From an uncultured bacterium (GTDB lineage Bacteria > Patescibacteriota > Minisyncoccia > Phycocordibacterales > JAACPR01), in the NCBI GenBank assembly GCA_937858275.1, contig CALLZK010000021.1:1-45370 (forward strand): DNA of 45,370 nucleotides, read 5' to 3'. Both the position numbers and the translations under genes were made by a program. Shown here piece after piece: positions 3,181 to 45,370 of this stretch (position 1 is its first letter; each line of letters starts with the position of its first letter). Under the pieces are notes generated by a model. That model ran no database searches, was not told the DNA's origin, and worked only from the letters and a program-made list of their open reading frames with translations.

Positions 3181-5115
3181 TTACATTTCAACAGGCCCTG
3201 AAGCACCAATACACCTAAGTTGTTTACTATTTGTTTCCTTTTTTGACTCGCCATCAATAGAAATTTCACACTTTACATAATATATACCAGGTAACACAAG
3301 TCTTTCCAGTGATTTTGTGTATTCTGTTGATGGCTCAAAATCCTGAGGTTTAGACATTTGAATTGGTGAATTTGCATTATATATAGCACAAGTACTGGGG
3401 TGGGAAGATTTTACTTCAAATCTGATTATACATTGAGGTGTTGCATATGCAAATGTATTATATGTATCTGTTAAATTTCCCTCACTATCTATATCTTCCT
3501 TAGATATAGATATGTCAAAATCTTGTTTATTTTTTATACATATAACTGTTCCTCCACCTGCAACACCCTCACAATTCCATTTTCTAAAATCAGTTTCTTC
3601 AATCACCTCACTAGGAGATCCCTGCAAACATATTGATTCTGATGGATTAAAATCTCCAGTAACAGTTGCCGTCGGATTACACTGTCCATCTTTTATTTTT
3701 GGTTTTTCACAACTGCTTGATGAACCGTTATTTGCACCAAGACAGTTCCATGTCCAATAATCTGGTGAGTCTTCTTTTAGATTATGATTTAGATTATGAT
3801 ATGTACCAGATGAACATGCGGAATTTGGATTTGGTGGAACTCTTCCTGGCAGTAAATCCCCCGGATTACATTGTCCATCAATCATTTTTGGTCTAGTGCA
3901 ACTTGCTGGTGGCACATTATCTAAAACATTTCTTTCACTAGAACATGTCCAATTCCATGGTCCAGAACCTGTGACAGTTGTAGGTGTTCCAATTGAACAG
4001 AGATCGGCTGGTTCGGTTGGTGGTGGATCCATACTTGGTATTATTGCTGTTGAACTACAACGACCAAGCGGTGCAAGTTCTTTCACACAACTAGCTGTTG
4101 CACCATCATTTATACCAACACATGTCCAATTCCATGGACCAGAACCTGTGACAGATGTGGGTGTTCCAATTGAACAGAGATCGGCTGGTTCGGTTGGTGG
4201 TGGATCCATACTTGGTATTATTGCTGTGGAACTACAACGACCATCCACACATGATCGACTAGTCGGAACATCAGAACATGTTGCCGGATTTGTAGTAGTT
4301 GAATACGAAACCGTATTTGCAGTTTGAAATCCGTTTGTGCAACTGTTCCATGTTGTTACAGCACTTATATAAGTACAAGAATAATTTTTTGCACAACTAA
4401 CAGATGTGCCACCATTTGAACCATTACATTTCCAATTCCATGGACCAGAACCTGTGACAGATGTGGGTGTTCCAGATGAACATAATGGACTTGTTGGTGA
4501 TGTTGTTCCGGAAATTATTGCTGTGGAACTACATTGGCCATTAACCAAAAGAGGTTTTGTACAACTAACAGGTGTGCCTCCATCTGAGCCATTACATGTC
4601 CAATTCCATGGACCAGAACCTGTGACAGATGTGGGTGTTCCAGATGAACATAATGGACTTGTTGGTGATGTTGTTCCGGAAATTATTGCTGTGGAACTAC
4701 ATTGGCCATTAATTGCACAACTATGAGTATTGCAATCTCTAGTTTCTCTATTACCACAACCATCTGTTCTGCTTTGTGTTCCAGTTCCACATGTTGCAGA
4801 ACAAGTGCTCCATGCAGACCAACTTGGTCGACATGCTCTACATATACGATTTGGTTTATTGCTACTACAATCACTAAAGTCATCGCAAAACCAATATTGC
4901 CCCGGAATACCGCTAACATAATTAGCCGGTTTCCAAGTCCAACCCTTTGTGACAAAACCATTTGCAGCACATTTCCAACTGCAAGCTCTTGTTGTATAAT
5001 CAGAAGAAGATGTACTCCAACACTCTTGTACACCCTGAGCAAAAACATTTGTATTTGTTAAAAAAAACATAAAAAAGAAAATTGCTGAGATTAAAAAAAA
5101 CATTTGTCTTTTCAT
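3181..5115 (-). CDS. Secreted Cys-rich repeat adhesin-like protein with a thrombospondin type-1 (TSP1/TSR) repeat
   Basis: ORF extends to 5151; likely start MKRQMFFLISAIFFFMFFLTNTNVFAQ at 5115 (signal peptide). WSAWSTCSATCGTGTQSR motif at 4717-4833. Six roughly 56-60 aa NGQC/GRC..C..G..WxWxC.G...G...C repeats. Confidence 0.85.
   Translation of the reverse strand: MKRQMFFLISAIFFFMFFLTNTNVFAQGVQECWSTSSSDYTTRACSWKCAANGFVTKGWTWKPANYVSGIPGQYWFCDDFSDCSSNKPNRICRACRPSWSAWSTCSATCGTGTQSRTDGCGNRETRDCNTHSCAINGQCSSTAIISGTTSPTSPLCSSGTPTSVTGSGPWNWTCNGSDGGTPVSCTKPLLVNGQCSSTAIISGTTSPTSPLCSSGTPTSVTGSGPWNWKCNGSNGGTSVSCAKNYSCTYISAVTTWNSCTNGFQTANTVSYSTTTNPATCSDVPTSRSCVDGRCSSTAIIPSMDPPPTEPADLCSIGTPTSVTGSGPWNWTCVGINDGATASCVKELAPLGRCSSTAIIPSMDPPPTEPADLCSIGTPTTVTGSGPWNWTCSSERNVLDNVPPASCTRPKMIDGQCNPGDLLPGRVPPNPNSACSSGTYHNLNHNLKEDSPDYWTWNCLGANNGSSSSCEKPKIKDGQCNPTATVTGDFNPSESICLQGSPSEVIEETDFRKWNCEGVAGGGTVICIKNKQDFDISISKEDIDSEGNLTDTYNTFAYATPQCIIRFEVKSSHPSTCAIYNANSPIQMSKPQDFEPSTEYTKSLERLVLPGIYYVKCEISIDGESKKETNSKQLRCIGASGPVEM
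3943..4242 (-). repeat. Near-identical coding tandem duplication, 177-bp period
   Basis: 3943-4065 versus 4120-4242 differ at only a few bases and encode GRCSSTAIIPSMDPPPTEPADLCSIGTPT(T/S)VTGSGPWNWTC. Confidence 0.9.
4431..4712 (-). repeat. Identical 114-bp coding duplication, 168-bp period
   Basis: 4431-4544 equals 4599-4712, compared base by base. Confidence 0.95.
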
Positions 5116-13690: not shown

Positions 13691-13813
13691 TTCACCTCAA
13701 TTACACAGACATCAATAAAAATATTAAGAAAGAGATGTTTAGAGGAGAGAGTTTTAAAAACACTCACATCCATTCCCTAAATATCTTTCTGATGTCTGTA
13801 TAATTAGGGTGAA
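13691..13813 (-). ncRNA. Candidate rod-shaped structured RNA or processing stem
   Basis: 24-bp imperfect terminal stem (13691-13714 / 13790-13813) where 2 of 3 mismatches become G-U pairs on the minus strand. Nested AAAGATATT/AATATTTTT and GGATGT/ACATCT stems; pyrimidine-rich segment left unpaired. Confidence 0.5.
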
Positions 13814-13912
13814 AATTAACTTTTTCGCCATTTTTGGCTCATCAGTCAGGACACACATCCTGAGAAAGTGGTGCGCTTTTAAACCATTGGTGCGCACCAA
13901 ACCAAAACAAAT

Positions 13913-14338
13913 TCAAAACATTTCCGTCATCTTCCTCCTTTCTAAGTCCCTCTCCCTCATTTGCAAGACGGAAGTCTTGCAACTTTTTATTTCTATTAGC
14001 AACCTCGCGGTTGCTTCTTTGATTTCCTCAATGACTTTTGGGGAAATCAAAATTTTTTTACCGTCTTCTCCGAAGACGGTTATGTGGTTTTGGCCACCCC
14101 AGGGGTGGCAAGTGAACAACACTTCTCCGGATGGAATCCGAAAAGAAATACTTCGTAGATACCTGTCATAGGTATCTACCTTATATCCCTTTTTCTCCAG
14201 AAGTTTTTCTATAATCACCTGATAGTACTGTGGATTCCCCCAGGCACTCTCTATGTTAATGATGTTATCATAATCTAATAACATCATTGACAACGCGTCT
14301 AGCGGGTTCAGCCATTTGATTAAAAATTTTGTTATCAC
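13913..14338 (-). CDS. Hypothetical protein (141 aa, no recognised family)
   Basis: GTG start preceded by a strong SD-like AGGGGAG; globular-looking composition. Confidence 0.7.
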   Translation of the reverse strand: MITKFLIKWLNPLDALSMMLLDYDNIINIESAWGNPQYYQVIIEKLLEKKGYKVDTYDRYLRSISFRIPSGEVLFTCHPWGGQNHITVFGEDGKKILISPKVIEEIKEATARLLIEIKSCKTSVLQMRERDLERRKMTEMF

Positions 14339-14624
14339 TTCTCTCCCCTAATCTGGTGTATTGTTTTGGCACACCTGTTTGAAGCCCACTATCTATCAAA
14401 CCACCACACCATGTGATGATTTGAATAAAAAGGAGAAATTTACGTATTCTCCAGTTGGCTTGTGCCACGGCCGACACCACATCGGCAACCACCACGCAAT
14501 TGAGTCTCAAGATAAGTATACTTATCCTTCCCTCATCTAGCTTTTGCGCAAAGCAACTTTGCATGTCTCACGACATTCACAAGCTGTCCCAGTTTCCGCT
14601 GGTTCGGTGATGCCTTTGGACGAC

Positions 14625-15158
14625 CTACTGGGCCGTCCGTCGACTCACAAGGTGTTTGTGCACCTCGGCCGCAACCGCGCTGTCATACAGCGGGTTATGG
14701 GTGGCACCGAAATCCGGCACCACGAGCCCCCACTTGTCGACATACTTGTCGACAGAGGTGGGATCCTCTCCGGCCTGCGCGAGTTCCCCCGCAACATCCA
14801 GAAGAGGATACGGACCGTCCCAGTCCCCGATGCACCCTTGCGAGTGCATGTCCCGAAGGAGATTACTCTCCACGGGAGTTCCCATGTGGACGACTATCTC
14901 CACACCTAACTTGTTCGCCAAGTAGAACTTGGCGAAATCGATAAGCAGAGACTCGTATGTCTCATGGGAGACGGGGAGACCACTGAGTGTGGGCAACACA
15001 TTCGTGCGAACCCACTCGTCAGTCACTGCTGTATCGGGCAAGCGACCGACAAACCGTCCAACTTCACGACCGGACTCGTCATAGACGAGTGCACCGATTG
15101 CGAAAGCACGGCCCCATAGACCATTGGTCTCGGCGTCAAAAGAAAAGATTTTTTTCAT
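14625..15158 (-). CDS. DEDDh (DnaQ-like) 3'-5' exonuclease, Rv2179c/RNase AS-like
   Basis: ExoI FDAETNG, VTDEWVRTNVLPTL and ExoIII THNPLYD. GC-rich (39/60 in 14761-14820). SD GAGG 10 nt upstream. Confidence 0.8.
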   Translation of the reverse strand: MKKIFSFDAETNGLWGRAFAIGALVYDESGREVGRFVGRLPDTAVTDEWVRTNVLPTLSGLPVSHETYESLLIDFAKFYLANKLGVEIVVHMGTPVESNLLRDMHSQGCIGDWDGPYPLLDVAGELAQAGEDPTSVDKYVDKWGLVVPDFGATHNPLYDSAVAAEVHKHLVSRRTAQ

Positions 15159-16029
15159 CTTTTCTTTTCCTCTGCATACTATTTTCCTAGTCTCCTAGGT
15201 TTTTATGCAGAGGTCCTTATGGTGCTTGACTGGGCACACCAACCCAGAGTGTTTTTGTTATAGGAAACACTCAACCATCTCAACGAACTAACAACCGAAG
15301 TGTTGTGGGCTCGATAGAAAGGAGATTTTCTTGAAATCCCCTACACCTTTTCAGGTGTGATTTAAACAGAATGAATTTATTTTTATATTACTTGTAAAAA
15401 TGCCGTCCAAATCACACCTGTCCATCTTTGTTTTGTCGAAAACCAGTTTTTAACCCGTCTCGTTTTACTACCACTAGCAAAAGATGAACTTGTGTGGATT
15501 TAATATTCAATTATCAACGAACTCCTCACCCTCTCCTCTCAATCTCATCGTGACTCTCTCCTCTTTTGGTCTGGCAAAGGGCACCTTTCCAGAAAAAATC
15601 ACACGACTTTGAGGTAGCAAGGATATTTCTAGACACAAAGAGTGGTTAATTCCTTATGTCGAGCCGATATCATTACTATTAGATACGGTTGATGTAATTT
15701 GCCTTATAGACATAGTTCCAATTCATGGCAGATGTTTGAGGCCTGGCACTTCACAGAACATTTACATCTTCAAACATAATAGGTTTAAATTTGGCTTCCA
15801 ATATTCTCTCCTCTTTGGGAAAAGTATTTCCGCAGAAAATTCACTCTCTCCTCTTTCTACACTTGCCGGCTGTAGGCACCGTCTAGATTAGGCCCGAATA
15901 TCTGTGGTCCAATCAAGATCAGACAGTGAACTTCAAATTTAACTCTATTACCTTTTAACGAACTTTTTGATGATTTGATTTTCAGACGATCGCCTCTTTA
16001 CGACCGGCATCTTTTCTTTTCATCATTCT
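15159..16029 (-). ncRNA. Candidate long structured 5' leader or ncRNA (about 870 nt, no ORF >=60 aa)
   Basis: No ORF in the track; many perfect stems (15169-15213, 15248-15271, 15352-15420, 15571-15592 and others); repeated AGAGGAGAG and AGTTCGTT motifs; lies between a consensus promoter and the exonuclease. Confidence 0.5.
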
Positions 16030-43347: not shown

Positions 43348-44631
43348 ATGCCTTTTATACTTAGAATAATATTGCAAAGAATTCTGCTTTTTATATATTC
43401 AGTTTTAACTTTTCTTGGAATTGCACCACAAGCCCAAATAGCAACACCAGAAGAGGTCGCCATAATTCAGGAACAAAGAAGAGAAAGAATATCTGACATA
43501 CTTTCTGAAAGACCATCACAAACACAAATAGCAGAAATAGAAAAGAGAGATTTGGAAAACCCAAGCACAATGGATGTGCTAGAAAAAACCAATCCAGAAT
43601 TACCCGTTACACCAATCACAAAATCGCCAACTCCAACCATTGCACCAACTCCAACCATTGCACCAACTCCAACCGTCACACCAACAACTCAGCCGTCAAC
43701 ACAAATACCAATCACACCAACTCAAGCCACAACCCCAACTTCCCCAACACCAGCAACACCAAAAATTATTCCAGAAAGTCCCATATTACAGCCCCAATCA
43801 ATTCAACAAAAAAACATATCTGTTGAAGATGTTTTGGTAAACACGGTTTGTGTTGAAAGAAGTGGAAATTCAATAAGTGTGACAACTGGTAGTGGTGTAA
43901 TCATATCTCCACAAGGAGTAATATTAACAAATGCTCATGTTGCTCAATTTTTTATTTTACAAGATTACAACAAAAGTGTTGATTGTGCAGTTTATAAAGA
44001 AAACATACCGACATACGGATACAAAGCAGAAATACTTTATATATCAAAAGAATGGATAAATAGAAATTACAATTTAATTAGAGAAAAAACAGCCAGAGGT
44101 ACCGGAGAATATGACTATGCCTTACTTTATATTACAAAAAACACAAATCCAACAATTTCAATTCCCCAATCTTTTCCATCAGCCAGATTGGCACTTTCAC
44201 AAAGTCCAAATGTTGGATACGAAGTATTGGTTGCTGGATATCCTGGAGGTCCAACAAGTATTTTGGACTTAACACGATCTGTAAAACTCCGAACTGCTTT
44301 TGTAAACATATTAGACATATTTACATTTGGCGGAAACAATCCTGATATTTTTACAGTTTCCAGATCAGAAGTTGGAGCAAAAGGTGCATCTGGCGGTGGA
44401 GTATTTTTATCAAAAAATGATAATTTGGATTTGTTAGGTGTTATAGTCACAACAGACGGAACTGGTGGAAATGCAAAAATAAATGCCATCACAACAAATT
44501 ATATTAATCGAGCAATACAATCAGAAACTGGAAATAATTTGAATTATTATCTTTCTGGAAACCTAAAAAGCAAGTCAGAACAATTTAGCAGTGTTCACCT
44601 AAAAGATTTGGCATCACTTTTGATTAAATAA
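43348..44631 (+). CDS. Membrane-anchored trypsin-like (S1) serine protease with a Pro/Thr-rich stalk
   Basis: GSGVII..ILTNAHVA (His), DYALL (Asp) and GASGGGVF (Ser); PT-rich linker. Confidence 0.9.
   Translation: MPFILRIILQRILLFIYSVLTFLGIAPQAQIATPEEVAIIQEQRRERISDILSERPSQTQIAEIEKRDLENPSTMDVLEKTNPELPVTPITKSPTPTIAPTPTIAPTPTVTPTTQPSTQIPITPTQATTPTSPTPATPKIIPESPILQPQSIQQKNISVEDVLVNTVCVERSGNSISVTTGSGVIISPQGVILTNAHVAQFFILQDYNKSVDCAVYKENIPTYGYKAEILYISKEWINRNYNLIREKTARGTGEYDYALLYITKNTNPTISIPQSFPSARLALSQSPNVGYEVLVAGYPGGPTSILDLTRSVKLRTAFVNILDIFTFGGNNPDIFTVSRSEVGAKGASGGGVFLSKNDNLDLLGVIVTTDGTGGNAKINAITTNYINRAIQSETGNNLNYYLSGNLKSKSEQFSSVHLKDLASLLIK
43627..43680 (+). repeat. 18-bp x3 coding tandem repeat (PTPTIA)
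   Basis: CCAACTCCAACCATTGCA twice, then CCAACTCCAACCGTCACA. Confidence 0.9.
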
Positions 44632-45077: not shown

Positions 45078-45150
45078 CGGAGCGTGGTGTAACGGCTAAC
45101 ATGCTCGCTTTGGGAGCGAGTGACTCCGGGTTCGAATCCCGGCGCTCCGA
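45078..45150 (+). tRNA. tRNA-Pro (anticodon TGG), CCA not encoded
   Basis: CGGAGCG / CGCTCCG acceptor; CTCGC-TTTGGGA-GCGAG; GGTTCGAATCC. Confidence 0.97.
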
Positions 45151-45252
45151 CTATAATCTGTACTTTCTCTGTAATTTTAGCATAGGACAAAATTTTTGAA
45201 AAAAGGATAAAGTAAAAAGAGAAAAGAGAATAAGTTTCTAAGTGCCAAAGTA

Positions 45253-45370
45253 TCATTTGCGAGATAGAAAAACAAACTGAACGTCGCCAAACCATCCGCT
45301 GTCAGGGTCCGCGAAGTTGGCATTCAGCCACGATTCAGAATCGTTCCGATTGACGTTGAACACGTTCGGA
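45253..45370 (-). CDS. 3' end of a probable DGR target gene (variable repeat), truncated by the window edge
   Basis: The minus frame reads PNVFNVNRNDSESWLNANFADPDSGWFGDVQFVFLSRK*, matching the CPR DGR target C-terminal pattern as I recall it. About 52% GC (31/60 in 45301-45360). Confidence 0.75.
   Translation of the reverse strand, partial: PNVFNVNRNDSESWLNANFADPDSGWFGDVQFVFLSRK

What the first reader, a model, noticed from the sequence alone, without database searches (positions are those of the whole stretch)
45253..45370. Variable repeat of a diversity-generating retroelement target at the window edge
Seen: a GC-richer partial ORF ending PNVFNVNRNDSESWLNANFADPDSGWFGDVQFVFLSRK*. Established: DGRs are abundant in CPR, mutate template adenines (AAC/AAT codons) and diversify C-terminal C-type-lectin-fold segments. 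From memory, CPR template repeats translate like PNVFNVNRN..WLNxN..NPDNxWNxDNxFVF..RK. Here the 5' half keeps Asn codons, while 3' codons (GCC, TTC, AGC, GGA, TTT, GGC, GTT, CAG) are all reachable from AAY/AAR by adenine-only changes, consistent with mutagenesis polarised toward the 3' end. This is inference, because the template is not in the window.
Basis: partly seen in the sequence, partly recalled or inferred. Interest (0 to 1): 0.75.

Follow-up and report, generated by a model that had tools for sequence, protein, structure and literature searches.

The report
Orphan hybrid repeat of a CPR retroelement
The GC-rich stub at the window edge is a repeat of a diversity-generating retroelement of a Patescibacteria (CPR) bacterium, but it is a non-genic hybrid of the template and a variable repeat, not the end of an intact target gene; the retroelement itself is ordinary.

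Summary
The minus strand of 45253-45369 reads PNVFNVNRNDSESWLNANFADPDSGWFGDVQFVFLSRK* at 49.6% GC in a 31% GC window.

The DGR call is right at family level. The peptide belongs to a Patescibacteria-wide repeat family. In about 80 related loci an Asn-rich template repeat (TR) lies about 450 nt after a target gene ending in a mutated variable repeat (VR). A reverse transcriptase (RT) with the LGNLTSQ/YADD motifs follows, sometimes with Avd. Of the TR/VR mismatches, 86% fall on TR adenines.

In the source metagenome a second copy shares at least 400 nt exactly with the window copy. That copy continues Asn-rich and sits on a contig colinear with the spacer, Avd, RT and toxin-antitoxin genes of the closest relative.

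The reading as "VR of a target gene with 3'-polarised mutagenesis" is not supported:
- The upstream flank is the non-coding VR-TR spacer, with an in-frame TAA.
- The 5' half equals the TR at every adenine.
- Only the 3' half, the stop codon and the downstream flank are of VR type.

So the window copy is a TR/VR recombinant. The same anatomy occurs in two relatives. Its 3' half is not derived from the present TR by adenine changes alone. Every assembly breaks at this fork. This is a known kind of element, of modest interest.

The parts
45316..45370 (-). 5' half of the repeat (..PNVFNVNRNDSESWLNAN). It is of template-repeat type and runs on beyond the window end into the VR-TR spacer.
   Evidence: It is 100% identical to a second copy in the same metagenome. 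A 403-nt shared unitig covers 45316-45370 plus 348 nt beyond the window end. All 15 adenines are unchanged. The window ends at the fork plus 54 nt (k=55) and L001 ends at the fork plus 140 nt (k=141).
45256..45315 (-). 3' half of the repeat (FADPDSGWFGDVQFVFLSRK), of variable-repeat type.
   Evidence: It has S, F and V (AGC, TTT, GTT) where the family TR consensus has Asn. A variant contig in run X2 differs only by TTT>AGT, GAC>AGC and GTT>CAT. Against the 30 nt of the second copy that could be read there are 15 mismatches, 8 at TR adenines and 7 at non-A sites.
45253..45255 (-). TGA stop directly after ..SRK, placed as in VRs of the family.
   Evidence: In relatives the VR ends ..RK* or ..SQ*, while the TR usually reads on past that point.
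45152..45252 (-). Downstream flank of VR type ('D' flank).
   Evidence: GCACTTAGAAACTTATTCTC aligns with the flank that follows the target stop codon in L110 and L091 (GCACTTAGATACTTAGTCCTTC), not with the flank after the TR. It has no significant hairpin of its own. The unitig 45161-45219 has about 3x depth.
45078..45151 (+). tRNA-Pro(TGG), the first unique gene next to the repeat block.
   Evidence: ARAGORN and Rfam both call it.

Best explanation
The segment is one copy of the repeat of a diversity-generating retroelement (DGR) of a Patescibacteria/CPR bacterium from activated sludge. It is neither the working template nor the end of a target gene. It is a recombinant, 'orphan' copy.

Its anatomy, in coding sense:
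- Its upstream flank (the about 260-nt VR-TR spacer, preceded by the distal part of a VR-type flank) and its first roughly 70 nt are the TR.
- Its last 60 nt, its stop codon and its downstream flank are of VR type.

Such a copy arises when the homologous TR and VR recombine out of register. This is either unequal crossover giving a duplication, or deletion between a TR and a downstream VR. Here the crossover falls at the conserved TGAATGCCAAC (WLNAN) stretch.

The working module, spacer-TR-Avd-RT followed by a RelB/RelE-like pair, lies on another contig that shares at least 400 nt exactly with the window copy. That shared stretch is why every assembler stops here.

Shown: family membership; the fork and the shared 403 nt; the non-coding upstream flank; the VR-type downstream flank; Avd and RT homology of the second contig; the same hybrid anatomy in relatives.

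Inferred: that both contigs belong to one genome; the recombination route; that the VR-type half records past adenine mutagenesis from an older or different TR.
For: 1. Family. A profile of the motif finds 266 short Patescibacteria ORFs. In context they are TRs lying between a target gene and an RVT_1 reverse transcriptase, with bAvd in L086 and L089. In 62 TR/VR pairs from the fetched loci, 1218 of 1424 mismatches sit at TR adenines, median 91%.

2. Closest relative, L110. Its layout is: target of 689 aa ending in a VR, flank, spacer, TR (IIFCIITDHDDNPNVFNVNRNDSELWLNANNGRSGNRHN..), Avd on the minus strand, then an RT with LGNLTSQ and YADD.

3. Second copy. A three-way junction of unitigs lies at 45316-45345. 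The other arm continues AATGGCAAGTCTGACAATAGGTGGAATGAC (NNGKSDNRWND), like the L110 TR. That 3387-nt contig aligns colinearly to L110 at the spacer (2206-2421), Avd (2832-2934) and RT (3280-3373 and 3564-3685, the latter covering GLPLGNLTSQ..YADD). It also aligns to the toxin-antitoxin genes of L091.

4. Not a gene end. L001 gives 87 nt beyond the window, with TAA in frame and stops in every frame. The shared unitig aligns to the non-coding spacer of L110 and L091.

5. Downstream flank is of VR type.

6. Precedents. L089 has VR, hybrid and TR at 481-nt spacing; its hybrid carries the TR flank and body with the VR end and flank. L090/L091 have target-VR-flank-spacer-hybrid-flank with no RT in 4.7 kb; that hybrid has a TR-like 5' half and a mutated 3' half.

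7. Real VRs of the family change 53% of 5'-half TR adenines and 48% of 3'-half ones, so an untouched 5' half is not polarity.
Against: - Only 30 nt of the second copy's 3' half could be read, and the contigs of the source samples could not be fetched. The order of the pieces on the chromosome is therefore inferred.
- The depth of the shared unitig (13.7) is below the roughly 19 expected if both arms (10.3 and 8.95) are single-copy in one genome. Two co-occurring strains remain possible.
- The 3' half does not fit the present TR, so its donor is unknown.
- The crossover stretch shared by the two lineages may be as short as 11 nt.
- A GTG (ATG in the relative L090) opens a 52-codon ORF over the copy, so a small protein cannot be formally excluded.
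Confidence: 0.7

Rival explanations
1. It is the working variable repeat at the 3' end of an intact target gene, with mutagenic homing polarised to the 3' end.
For: The 3' half is of VR type, the stop codon and downstream flank are as in VRs, and a variant contig differs at canonical positions. Partial 5' resolution of cDNA is known for the Bordetella phage DGR, where at least 8 bp of homology suffices (PMC3240598).
Against: There is an in-frame TAA 66 nt upstream, with stops in all frames. The upstream 400 nt equals the flank of the TR copy and aligns to the non-coding spacer of relatives. No protein in 5.8 billion carries this C-terminus. Family VRs show no 5'/3' polarity.
Confidence: 0.06
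2. The hybrid copy, although non-genic, is still a live acceptor of mutagenised cDNA. It keeps a VR-type 3' end, so the DGR writes into it, and its 3' half changes while the 5' half is reset by homology with the TR.
For: For the prototype DGR, sequences upstream of the VR are dispensable, and IMH plus hairpin plus short homology are sufficient (PMC3240598). The window and the X2 variant differ by six changes confined to codon positions 1-2 of three canonical codons. L091's hybrid also has an A-mutated-looking 3' half.
Against: The 3' half differs from the readable TR at 7 of 19 non-A sites (P about 2e-6 under the family rate). The copy and its flank are identical in three assemblies. There is no hairpin beside it. 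The X2 variant has a different 5' part and may be the true VR of a target gene rather than an allele of the hybrid.
Confidence: 0.15
3. It is itself a template repeat: the donor, or a decayed donor of a DGR that has lost its RT.
For: Its upstream flank and 5' half are of TR type. All database relatives found with it are TRs.
Against: There is no Avd or RT downstream; tRNA-Pro, an RNHCP-domain gene and a protease follow. The canonical Asn positions of the 3' half are non-Asn. The stop codon and flank are of VR type.
Confidence: 0.05
4. It encodes a real small protein of about 52 aa starting at GTG, unrelated to retroelement activity.
For: The start position is kept (GTG here, ATG in L090) and gene callers predict such ORFs.
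Against: ORF lengths and ends vary freely across the family (43-151 aa). The conserved part is exactly the TR. The context is always target/TR/RT.
Confidence: 0.03

Closest known systems
Patescibacteria/CPR diversity-generating retroelements (DGR clade 2 of Roux et al. 2021, PMC8144416; the 'CPR set' of Wu et al. 2018, PMC5758913; Paul et al. 2017 from memory, paper not held)
   Same: The repeat family is the same as in L086, L110 and about 80 other loci. A target gene ends in a VR, an Asn-rich TR lies about 450 nt downstream, Avd and an RT with the [LI]GNLTSQ motif follow, and mismatches are adenine-specific.
   Different: The window copy is not one of the two canonical repeats. It combines the TR's upstream flank and 5' half with a VR's 3' half, stop codon and flank. 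It lies beside tRNA-Pro with no Avd or RT next to it.
Bordetella phage BPP-1 DGR (prototype; target-site rules in Guo et al. 2011, PMC3240598)
   Same: The logic is the same: TR RNA is copied into adenine-mutagenised cDNA that replaces the VR. Only 3' recognition elements plus short 5' homology are needed at the acceptor.
   Different: No (GC)14-type IMH or adjacent hairpin is visible here. The target domain has no detectable sequence relation to Mtd. Nothing mechanistic was tested for this family.
Extra hybrid repeat copies in relatives: L089 (Wolfebacteria GCA_001793865.1, copy c2) and L090/L091 (copy c2)
   Same: The anatomy is the same: TR-type spacer and 5' part, VR-type end and flank. 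In L091 the 5' half is likewise TR-like and the 3' half mutated, with the boundary at the same place after ..NAN.
   Different: In L089 the hybrid is still fully TR-like and sits in tandem between VR and TR. In L091 no RT lies within 4.7 kb. In the window's samples a TR-Avd-RT contig is present, and the hybrid's upstream 400 nt is still 100% identical to it.

Membership tests
Diversity-generating retroelement (DGR) | The repeat is homologous to TR/VR repeats of bona fide DGRs | tested here: met
   phmmer and profile hits are TRs that sit between a target gene and an RT. L086 has 25 mismatches over the 135-nt span, 23 at TR adenines. Over 62 family pairs, 86% of mismatches are at TR adenines.
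Diversity-generating retroelement (DGR) | A DGR-type reverse transcriptase ([LIV]GxxxSQ motif) in the same genome, usually next to the TR | tested here: inconclusive
   There is none in the window. In the same runs, the contig carrying the second repeat copy aligns at 82-87% identity to L110's RT, including the GLPLGNLTSQ..YADD stretch, and to its Avd. That both contigs belong to one genome is inferred from the exact 403-nt overlap, the similar depth, and the same break in every assembly.
Diversity-generating retroelement (DGR) | The TR/VR pair differs almost only where the TR has adenine | tested here: not met
   Comparing the window copy with the second copy: the 5' 55 nt show 0 differences. 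In the next 30 nt there are 15 differences, 8 at TR adenines and 7 at 19 non-A sites. The family non-A rate is 3.4%, giving P about 2e-6. The rest of the TR could not be read.
Diversity-generating retroelement (DGR) | The VR lies at the 3' end of a protein-coding target gene | tested here: not met
   L001 shows TAA in frame 66 nt upstream, and the flank is the non-coding VR-TR spacer. Alternative code 25 does not rescue it, because the stop is TAA and the window's genes read normally in table 11.
Diversity-generating retroelement (DGR) | Population-level variation confined to adenine-templated positions | tested here: inconclusive
   One variant contig in run X2 differs at codon positions 1-2 of codons 27, 29 and 30, but it has another 5' part. 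Only assembled contigs were available, not raw reads. Three assemblies are identical across the copy.
Diversity-generating retroelement (DGR) | IMH-like 3' end and a hairpin/cruciform just downstream of the VR | tested here: inconclusive
   The flank folds no better than shuffles (z = 0.31). The requirement is known only for the BPP-1-type elements.
C-type lectin fold variable protein | The VR forms part of a C-type lectin fold domain | not testable with these tools
   The family's conserved C-terminal target domain of about 150 aa (alignment A3) has no Pfam, NCBIfam or PDB sequence match.

The most novel reading that the evidence does not exclude
Out-of-register TR x VR recombination is a recurrent way in which CPR DGR cassettes duplicate and decay. 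The resulting non-genic hybrids keep a VR-type 3' end and continue to be written into by the retroelement. They would then be natural 'orphan acceptors' showing that, in the wild, homing needs only the 3' end of a VR and no gene at all. The six DGR-style differences between the window copy and the X2 variant would be traces of that activity.
Probability: 0.15. Interest if true: 0.5.

Novelty: new member of a known kind. Interest (0 to 1): 0.3.

Why it matters
- For annotation: the stub should not be called the end of a DGR target gene. The repeat explains why every assembly of this genome stops at this exact base.
- For DGR biology: it adds a third example, beside L089 and L091, of TR/VR hybrid copies. 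DGR finders that look for one TR and its adenine-mismatched VRs will misclassify such copies or miss them.
- A gap in knowledge: the C-terminal target domain of this widespread CPR DGR family (about 150 aa) has no Pfam, NCBIfam or PDB counterpart by sequence.
- None of this changes what is known about how DGRs work.

Tried and rejected
- Looked for a TR inside the window with blastn at word size 7: none. RT-motif scan of the window: none.
- Exact and A-to-N degenerate patterns of both halves against the GTDB representative genomes, JGI metagenomes and IMG/VR: no match, so the organism is absent from those collections.
- Word-indexed protein search with the 43-aa peptide, and with the 23 aa that end just upstream in another frame: nothing. 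A first try was rejected as too short.
- Synteny through the neighbouring RNHCP-domain gene in 80 CPR genomes: the neighbourhood is not conserved and no homologous segment turned up.
- Rfam, to test for rRNA, an intron or a known RNA at the GC-rich break: only the tRNA.
Laying them on the L110 TR alone gave nothing, so the 3' end of the second copy stays unread.
- Looked among all fetched TRs for a donor of the window's 3' half: the best still has 12 non-A mismatches. Closer TRs among the protein hits: none.
- Genetic code 25 as a rescue of the ORF: rejected, because the upstream stop is TAA.
Sequence searches of PDB, Pfam and NCBIfam: empty.
- Cluster look-up for an organism name: names are withheld for the window's own proteins.
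- The Paul et al. 2017 paper is not held.

Full report
**Observation.** The minus strand of window 45253-45369 translates as PNVFNVNRNDSESWLNANFADPDSGWFGDVQFVFLSRK followed by TGA, and the frame runs off the window end. GC is 49.6% against 31.0% for the window, and only 1.5% of 117-nt windows reach that value. tRNA-Pro(TGG) lies 100 nt downstream on the other strand. No Rfam family other than the tRNA matches. There is no second copy of the segment and no RT with a DGR motif in the 45 kb.

**Why the contig ends here.** The neighbouring RNHCP-domain protein is encoded on 12 public contigs: ENA, the NCBI MAG GCA_035324455.1, and Logan assemblies of two activated-sludge runs. All of them stop at this place.
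- In the Logan unitigs (k=31) three pieces meet at 45316-45345:
  - a 155-nt piece carrying the window's 3' half (depth 10.3);
  - a 3013-nt piece that continues differently (depth 8.95);
  - a 403-nt shared piece covering 45316-45370 plus 348 nt beyond the window (depth 13.7).
- The window ends at the fork plus 54 nt, and the k=141 contig L001 ends at the fork plus 140 nt. That is what de Bruijn assemblers do at a repeat.
- L001 therefore gives 87 true nucleotides beyond the window. They are AT-rich, carry TAA in the repeat's frame 66 nt upstream of CCG, and have stops in all six frames.

**What family it is.**
- The 38 residues alone found 19 short predicted proteins among 1.84 billion (E down to 2.5e-5), matching end to end.
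- A profile search found 266 proteins. All 120 listed are 45-88 aa, and those that carry a name are from Patescibacteria.
- Context shows these ORFs are gene-caller artefacts laid over template repeats:
  - In L086 a 218-aa protein ends ..GGGPRVFALERRGDERWLGGDWASPDVKWYLFNEFVFRLRK*. The Asn-rich copy lies 467 nt downstream, followed by a bAvd gene on the other strand and an RVT_1 protein with LGNLTSQ and YADD. Of 22 mismatches in the 131-nt repeat, 21 are at TR adenines.
  - L089 (Wolfebacteria) is similar, with bAvd and RT.
- A scan of JGI metagenomes brought 80 more loci with the same layout. Targets are either 210-280 aa or 580-780 aa.
- Over 62 TR/VR pairs, 1218 of 1424 mismatches are at TR adenines (median 91% per pair). 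Both halves of the repeat are hit alike: 53% of 5'-half adenines and 48% of 3'-half adenines are changed.
- This matches published descriptions. PMC8144416 describes a DGR clade restricted to Patescibacteria, and PMC5758913 compiles a set of 126 DGRs mainly from CPR bacteria.

**The second copy is the template, with its enzymes.**
- Beyond the fork the other arm reads AAT GGC AAG TCT GAC AAT AGG TGG AAT GAC (NNGKSDNRWND). This is close to the TR of the nearest relative L110 (..WLNANNGRSGNRHNADN..).
- L110 carries target (689 aa)-VR, flank, spacer, TR, Avd (minus strand) and RT.
- I laid the run contigs on L110 at 80% likeness or better. The 3387-nt contig holding the second copy aligns colinearly to:
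  - the spacer (2206-2421);
  - Avd (2832-2934);
  - RT (3280-3373, LYPYFD..SYSCRNNKG..; and 3564-3685, GLPLGNLTSQ..YIRYADDFV);
  - a point beyond the RT (4465-4505).
- Laid on L091, the same contig also matches a RelB/RelE-like gene pair. In L110 the homologous 90-aa antitoxin-like gene follows the RT.

**Why the window copy is not a working VR.**
- Its upstream 400 nt is the same sequence that precedes the TR. That sequence aligns to the non-coding spacer between the target stop and the TR in L110 and L091, and its far end is the distal part of a VR-type flank with a terminator-like hairpin (CCGCATTCATGCGG). There is no gene for it to be the end of.
- Its 5' half equals the TR at all 15 adenines. 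With the family's 53% change rate, that has a probability of about 1e-5 for a real VR.
- Its 3' half, stop codon and downstream flank are of VR type. It has S, F and V at canonical Asn positions, a stop directly after ..RK, and a flank (GCACTTAGAAACTTATTCTC) homologous to the flank after the target stop in L110 and L091 rather than to the flank after the TR.
- The copy is therefore a TR/VR hybrid with the junction at TGAATGCCAAC.

**Precedents.**
- L089 has three copies at 481-nt spacing: VR, a hybrid (TR flank and body with the VR end and flank, 97% identical to the VR's downstream 166 nt), and TR. This is the expected product of unequal crossover.
- L090/L091, the closest relative of the window's spacer, has toxin/antitoxin-target-VR-flank-spacer-hybrid-flank and then an unrelated gene. 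There is no RT in 4.7 kb; thrS lies at the other end. Its hybrid is TR-like up to ..NAN and mutated after that, as in the window.
- Extra copies are rare: 2 of 86 loci have three or more.

**What does not fit.**
- The 30 readable nucleotides of the TR's 3' half differ from the window at 15 positions. Seven are at non-A sites, against a family rate of 3.4% (P about 2e-6). The window's VR-type half was therefore not written from the present TR. An older TR version, or a second DGR, is the likely donor; a 429-nt second RT-like contig at depth 3.8 exists. No fetched TR fits better.
- A 612-nt contig in run X2 has the same flank and 3' half but differs by TTT>AGT, GAC>AGC and GTT>CAT. These are exactly codon positions 1-2 at canonical positions 27, 29 and 30. 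Its 5' part is unlike the window (..LVSDDAKLLLNAN). It may be the true VR of a target gene or an allele. It is the only direct hint of DGR-style variation.
- A 493-nt contig homologous to the target body has twice the depth and ends about where the VR should begin.
- The copy and its flank are identical in three assemblies, though these are 99.8-100% identical genomes overall.
- The flank has no hairpin. The BPP-1 rules for acceptors (IMH, hairpin, short 5' homology, upstream sequence dispensable) come from PMC3240598.
- Whether the two contigs are one genome is inferred. The shared piece has depth 13.7, not the sum of the two arms.

**Comparison and verdict.** The element works like, and belongs with, the CPR DGRs. 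The specific copy fails two membership tests for a working VR: it is not at the 3' end of a gene, and its mismatches to the TR are not adenine-only. It is best filed as an orphan hybrid repeat. The C-type lectin fold claimed for the variable segment could not be tested. The finding is a new member of a known kind. Interest is modest; the points of some value are the hybrid copies and the unannotated target domain.

Noticed in passing
window 13800-15300: A GC-rich island, up to 62% GC in a 31% GC genome. It holds a 177-aa ORF (14625-15158, minus strand; MKKIFSFDAETNGLWGRAF.., whose N-terminus looks like a DnaQ-type exonuclease) and a 141-aa ORF (13913-14338, minus strand). Neither has a Pfam hit. 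It is probably horizontally acquired.
   Followed up: partly
L044 1-2800 (CAILDB010000001.1): A textbook DGR of another type in a CPR MAG that was fetched only through RNHCP homology. The target (105-863) ends YYWSSTEFGESYAWY..FSVRCVR; Avd is at 943-1431; the TR (about 1450-1610) reads NYWSSTENDENNAWNANYNNG..; the RT is at 1650-2789.
   Followed up: partly
L089 7598-8693 (Wolfebacteria GCA_001793865.1): Three DGR repeat copies at exactly 481-nt spacing (VR, TR/VR hybrid, TR). This is a tandem duplication by unequal crossover between VR and TR.
   Followed up: yes
L091 489-1032 and L110 4090-4362: RelB/DinJ-like antitoxin genes (94 aa in L091, 90 aa in L110) travel with this DGR lineage. L091 also has an adjacent 84-aa RelE/YafQ-like toxin gene. 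The pair lies downstream of the RT in L110 and in the window's sister contig, but upstream of the target in L091.
   Followed up: partly
window 45142-45226: The 59-nt unitig 45161-45219 has about 3x depth. A 626-nt contig carries a diverged copy of the flank. A 134-nt contig joins 45185..45142, which includes the last 10 nt of tRNA-Pro, directly to the middle of a repeat copy that looks adenine-mutated (TTCTGAATCGTGGCTGCTTGCCTAC; AAT>CTT, AAC>TAC). This is unexplained.
   Followed up: no
L145 422-4987: A DGR with the layout TR-RT-...-target(VR), plus an inverted 89-nt partial TR copy at 2790-2878.
   Followed up: no
alignment A3 (targets of L086, L089, L091, L110 and others): The targets of this DGR family share a conserved C-terminal domain of about 150 aa (..ISDWA.D.L.KP.F......L....V..LGF...T..EI..RA.ELGLELCPAE.GP.LRLQY.DQP.GEW...AME.ITDSDG..). 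It has no Pfam, NCBIfam or PDB sequence match.
   Followed up: partly
window 43348-44631: The trypsin-like protease has a Pro/Thr-rich low-complexity linker. It differs by an 18-nt indel (421 vs 427 aa) between otherwise 99.8% identical assemblies.
   Followed up: no
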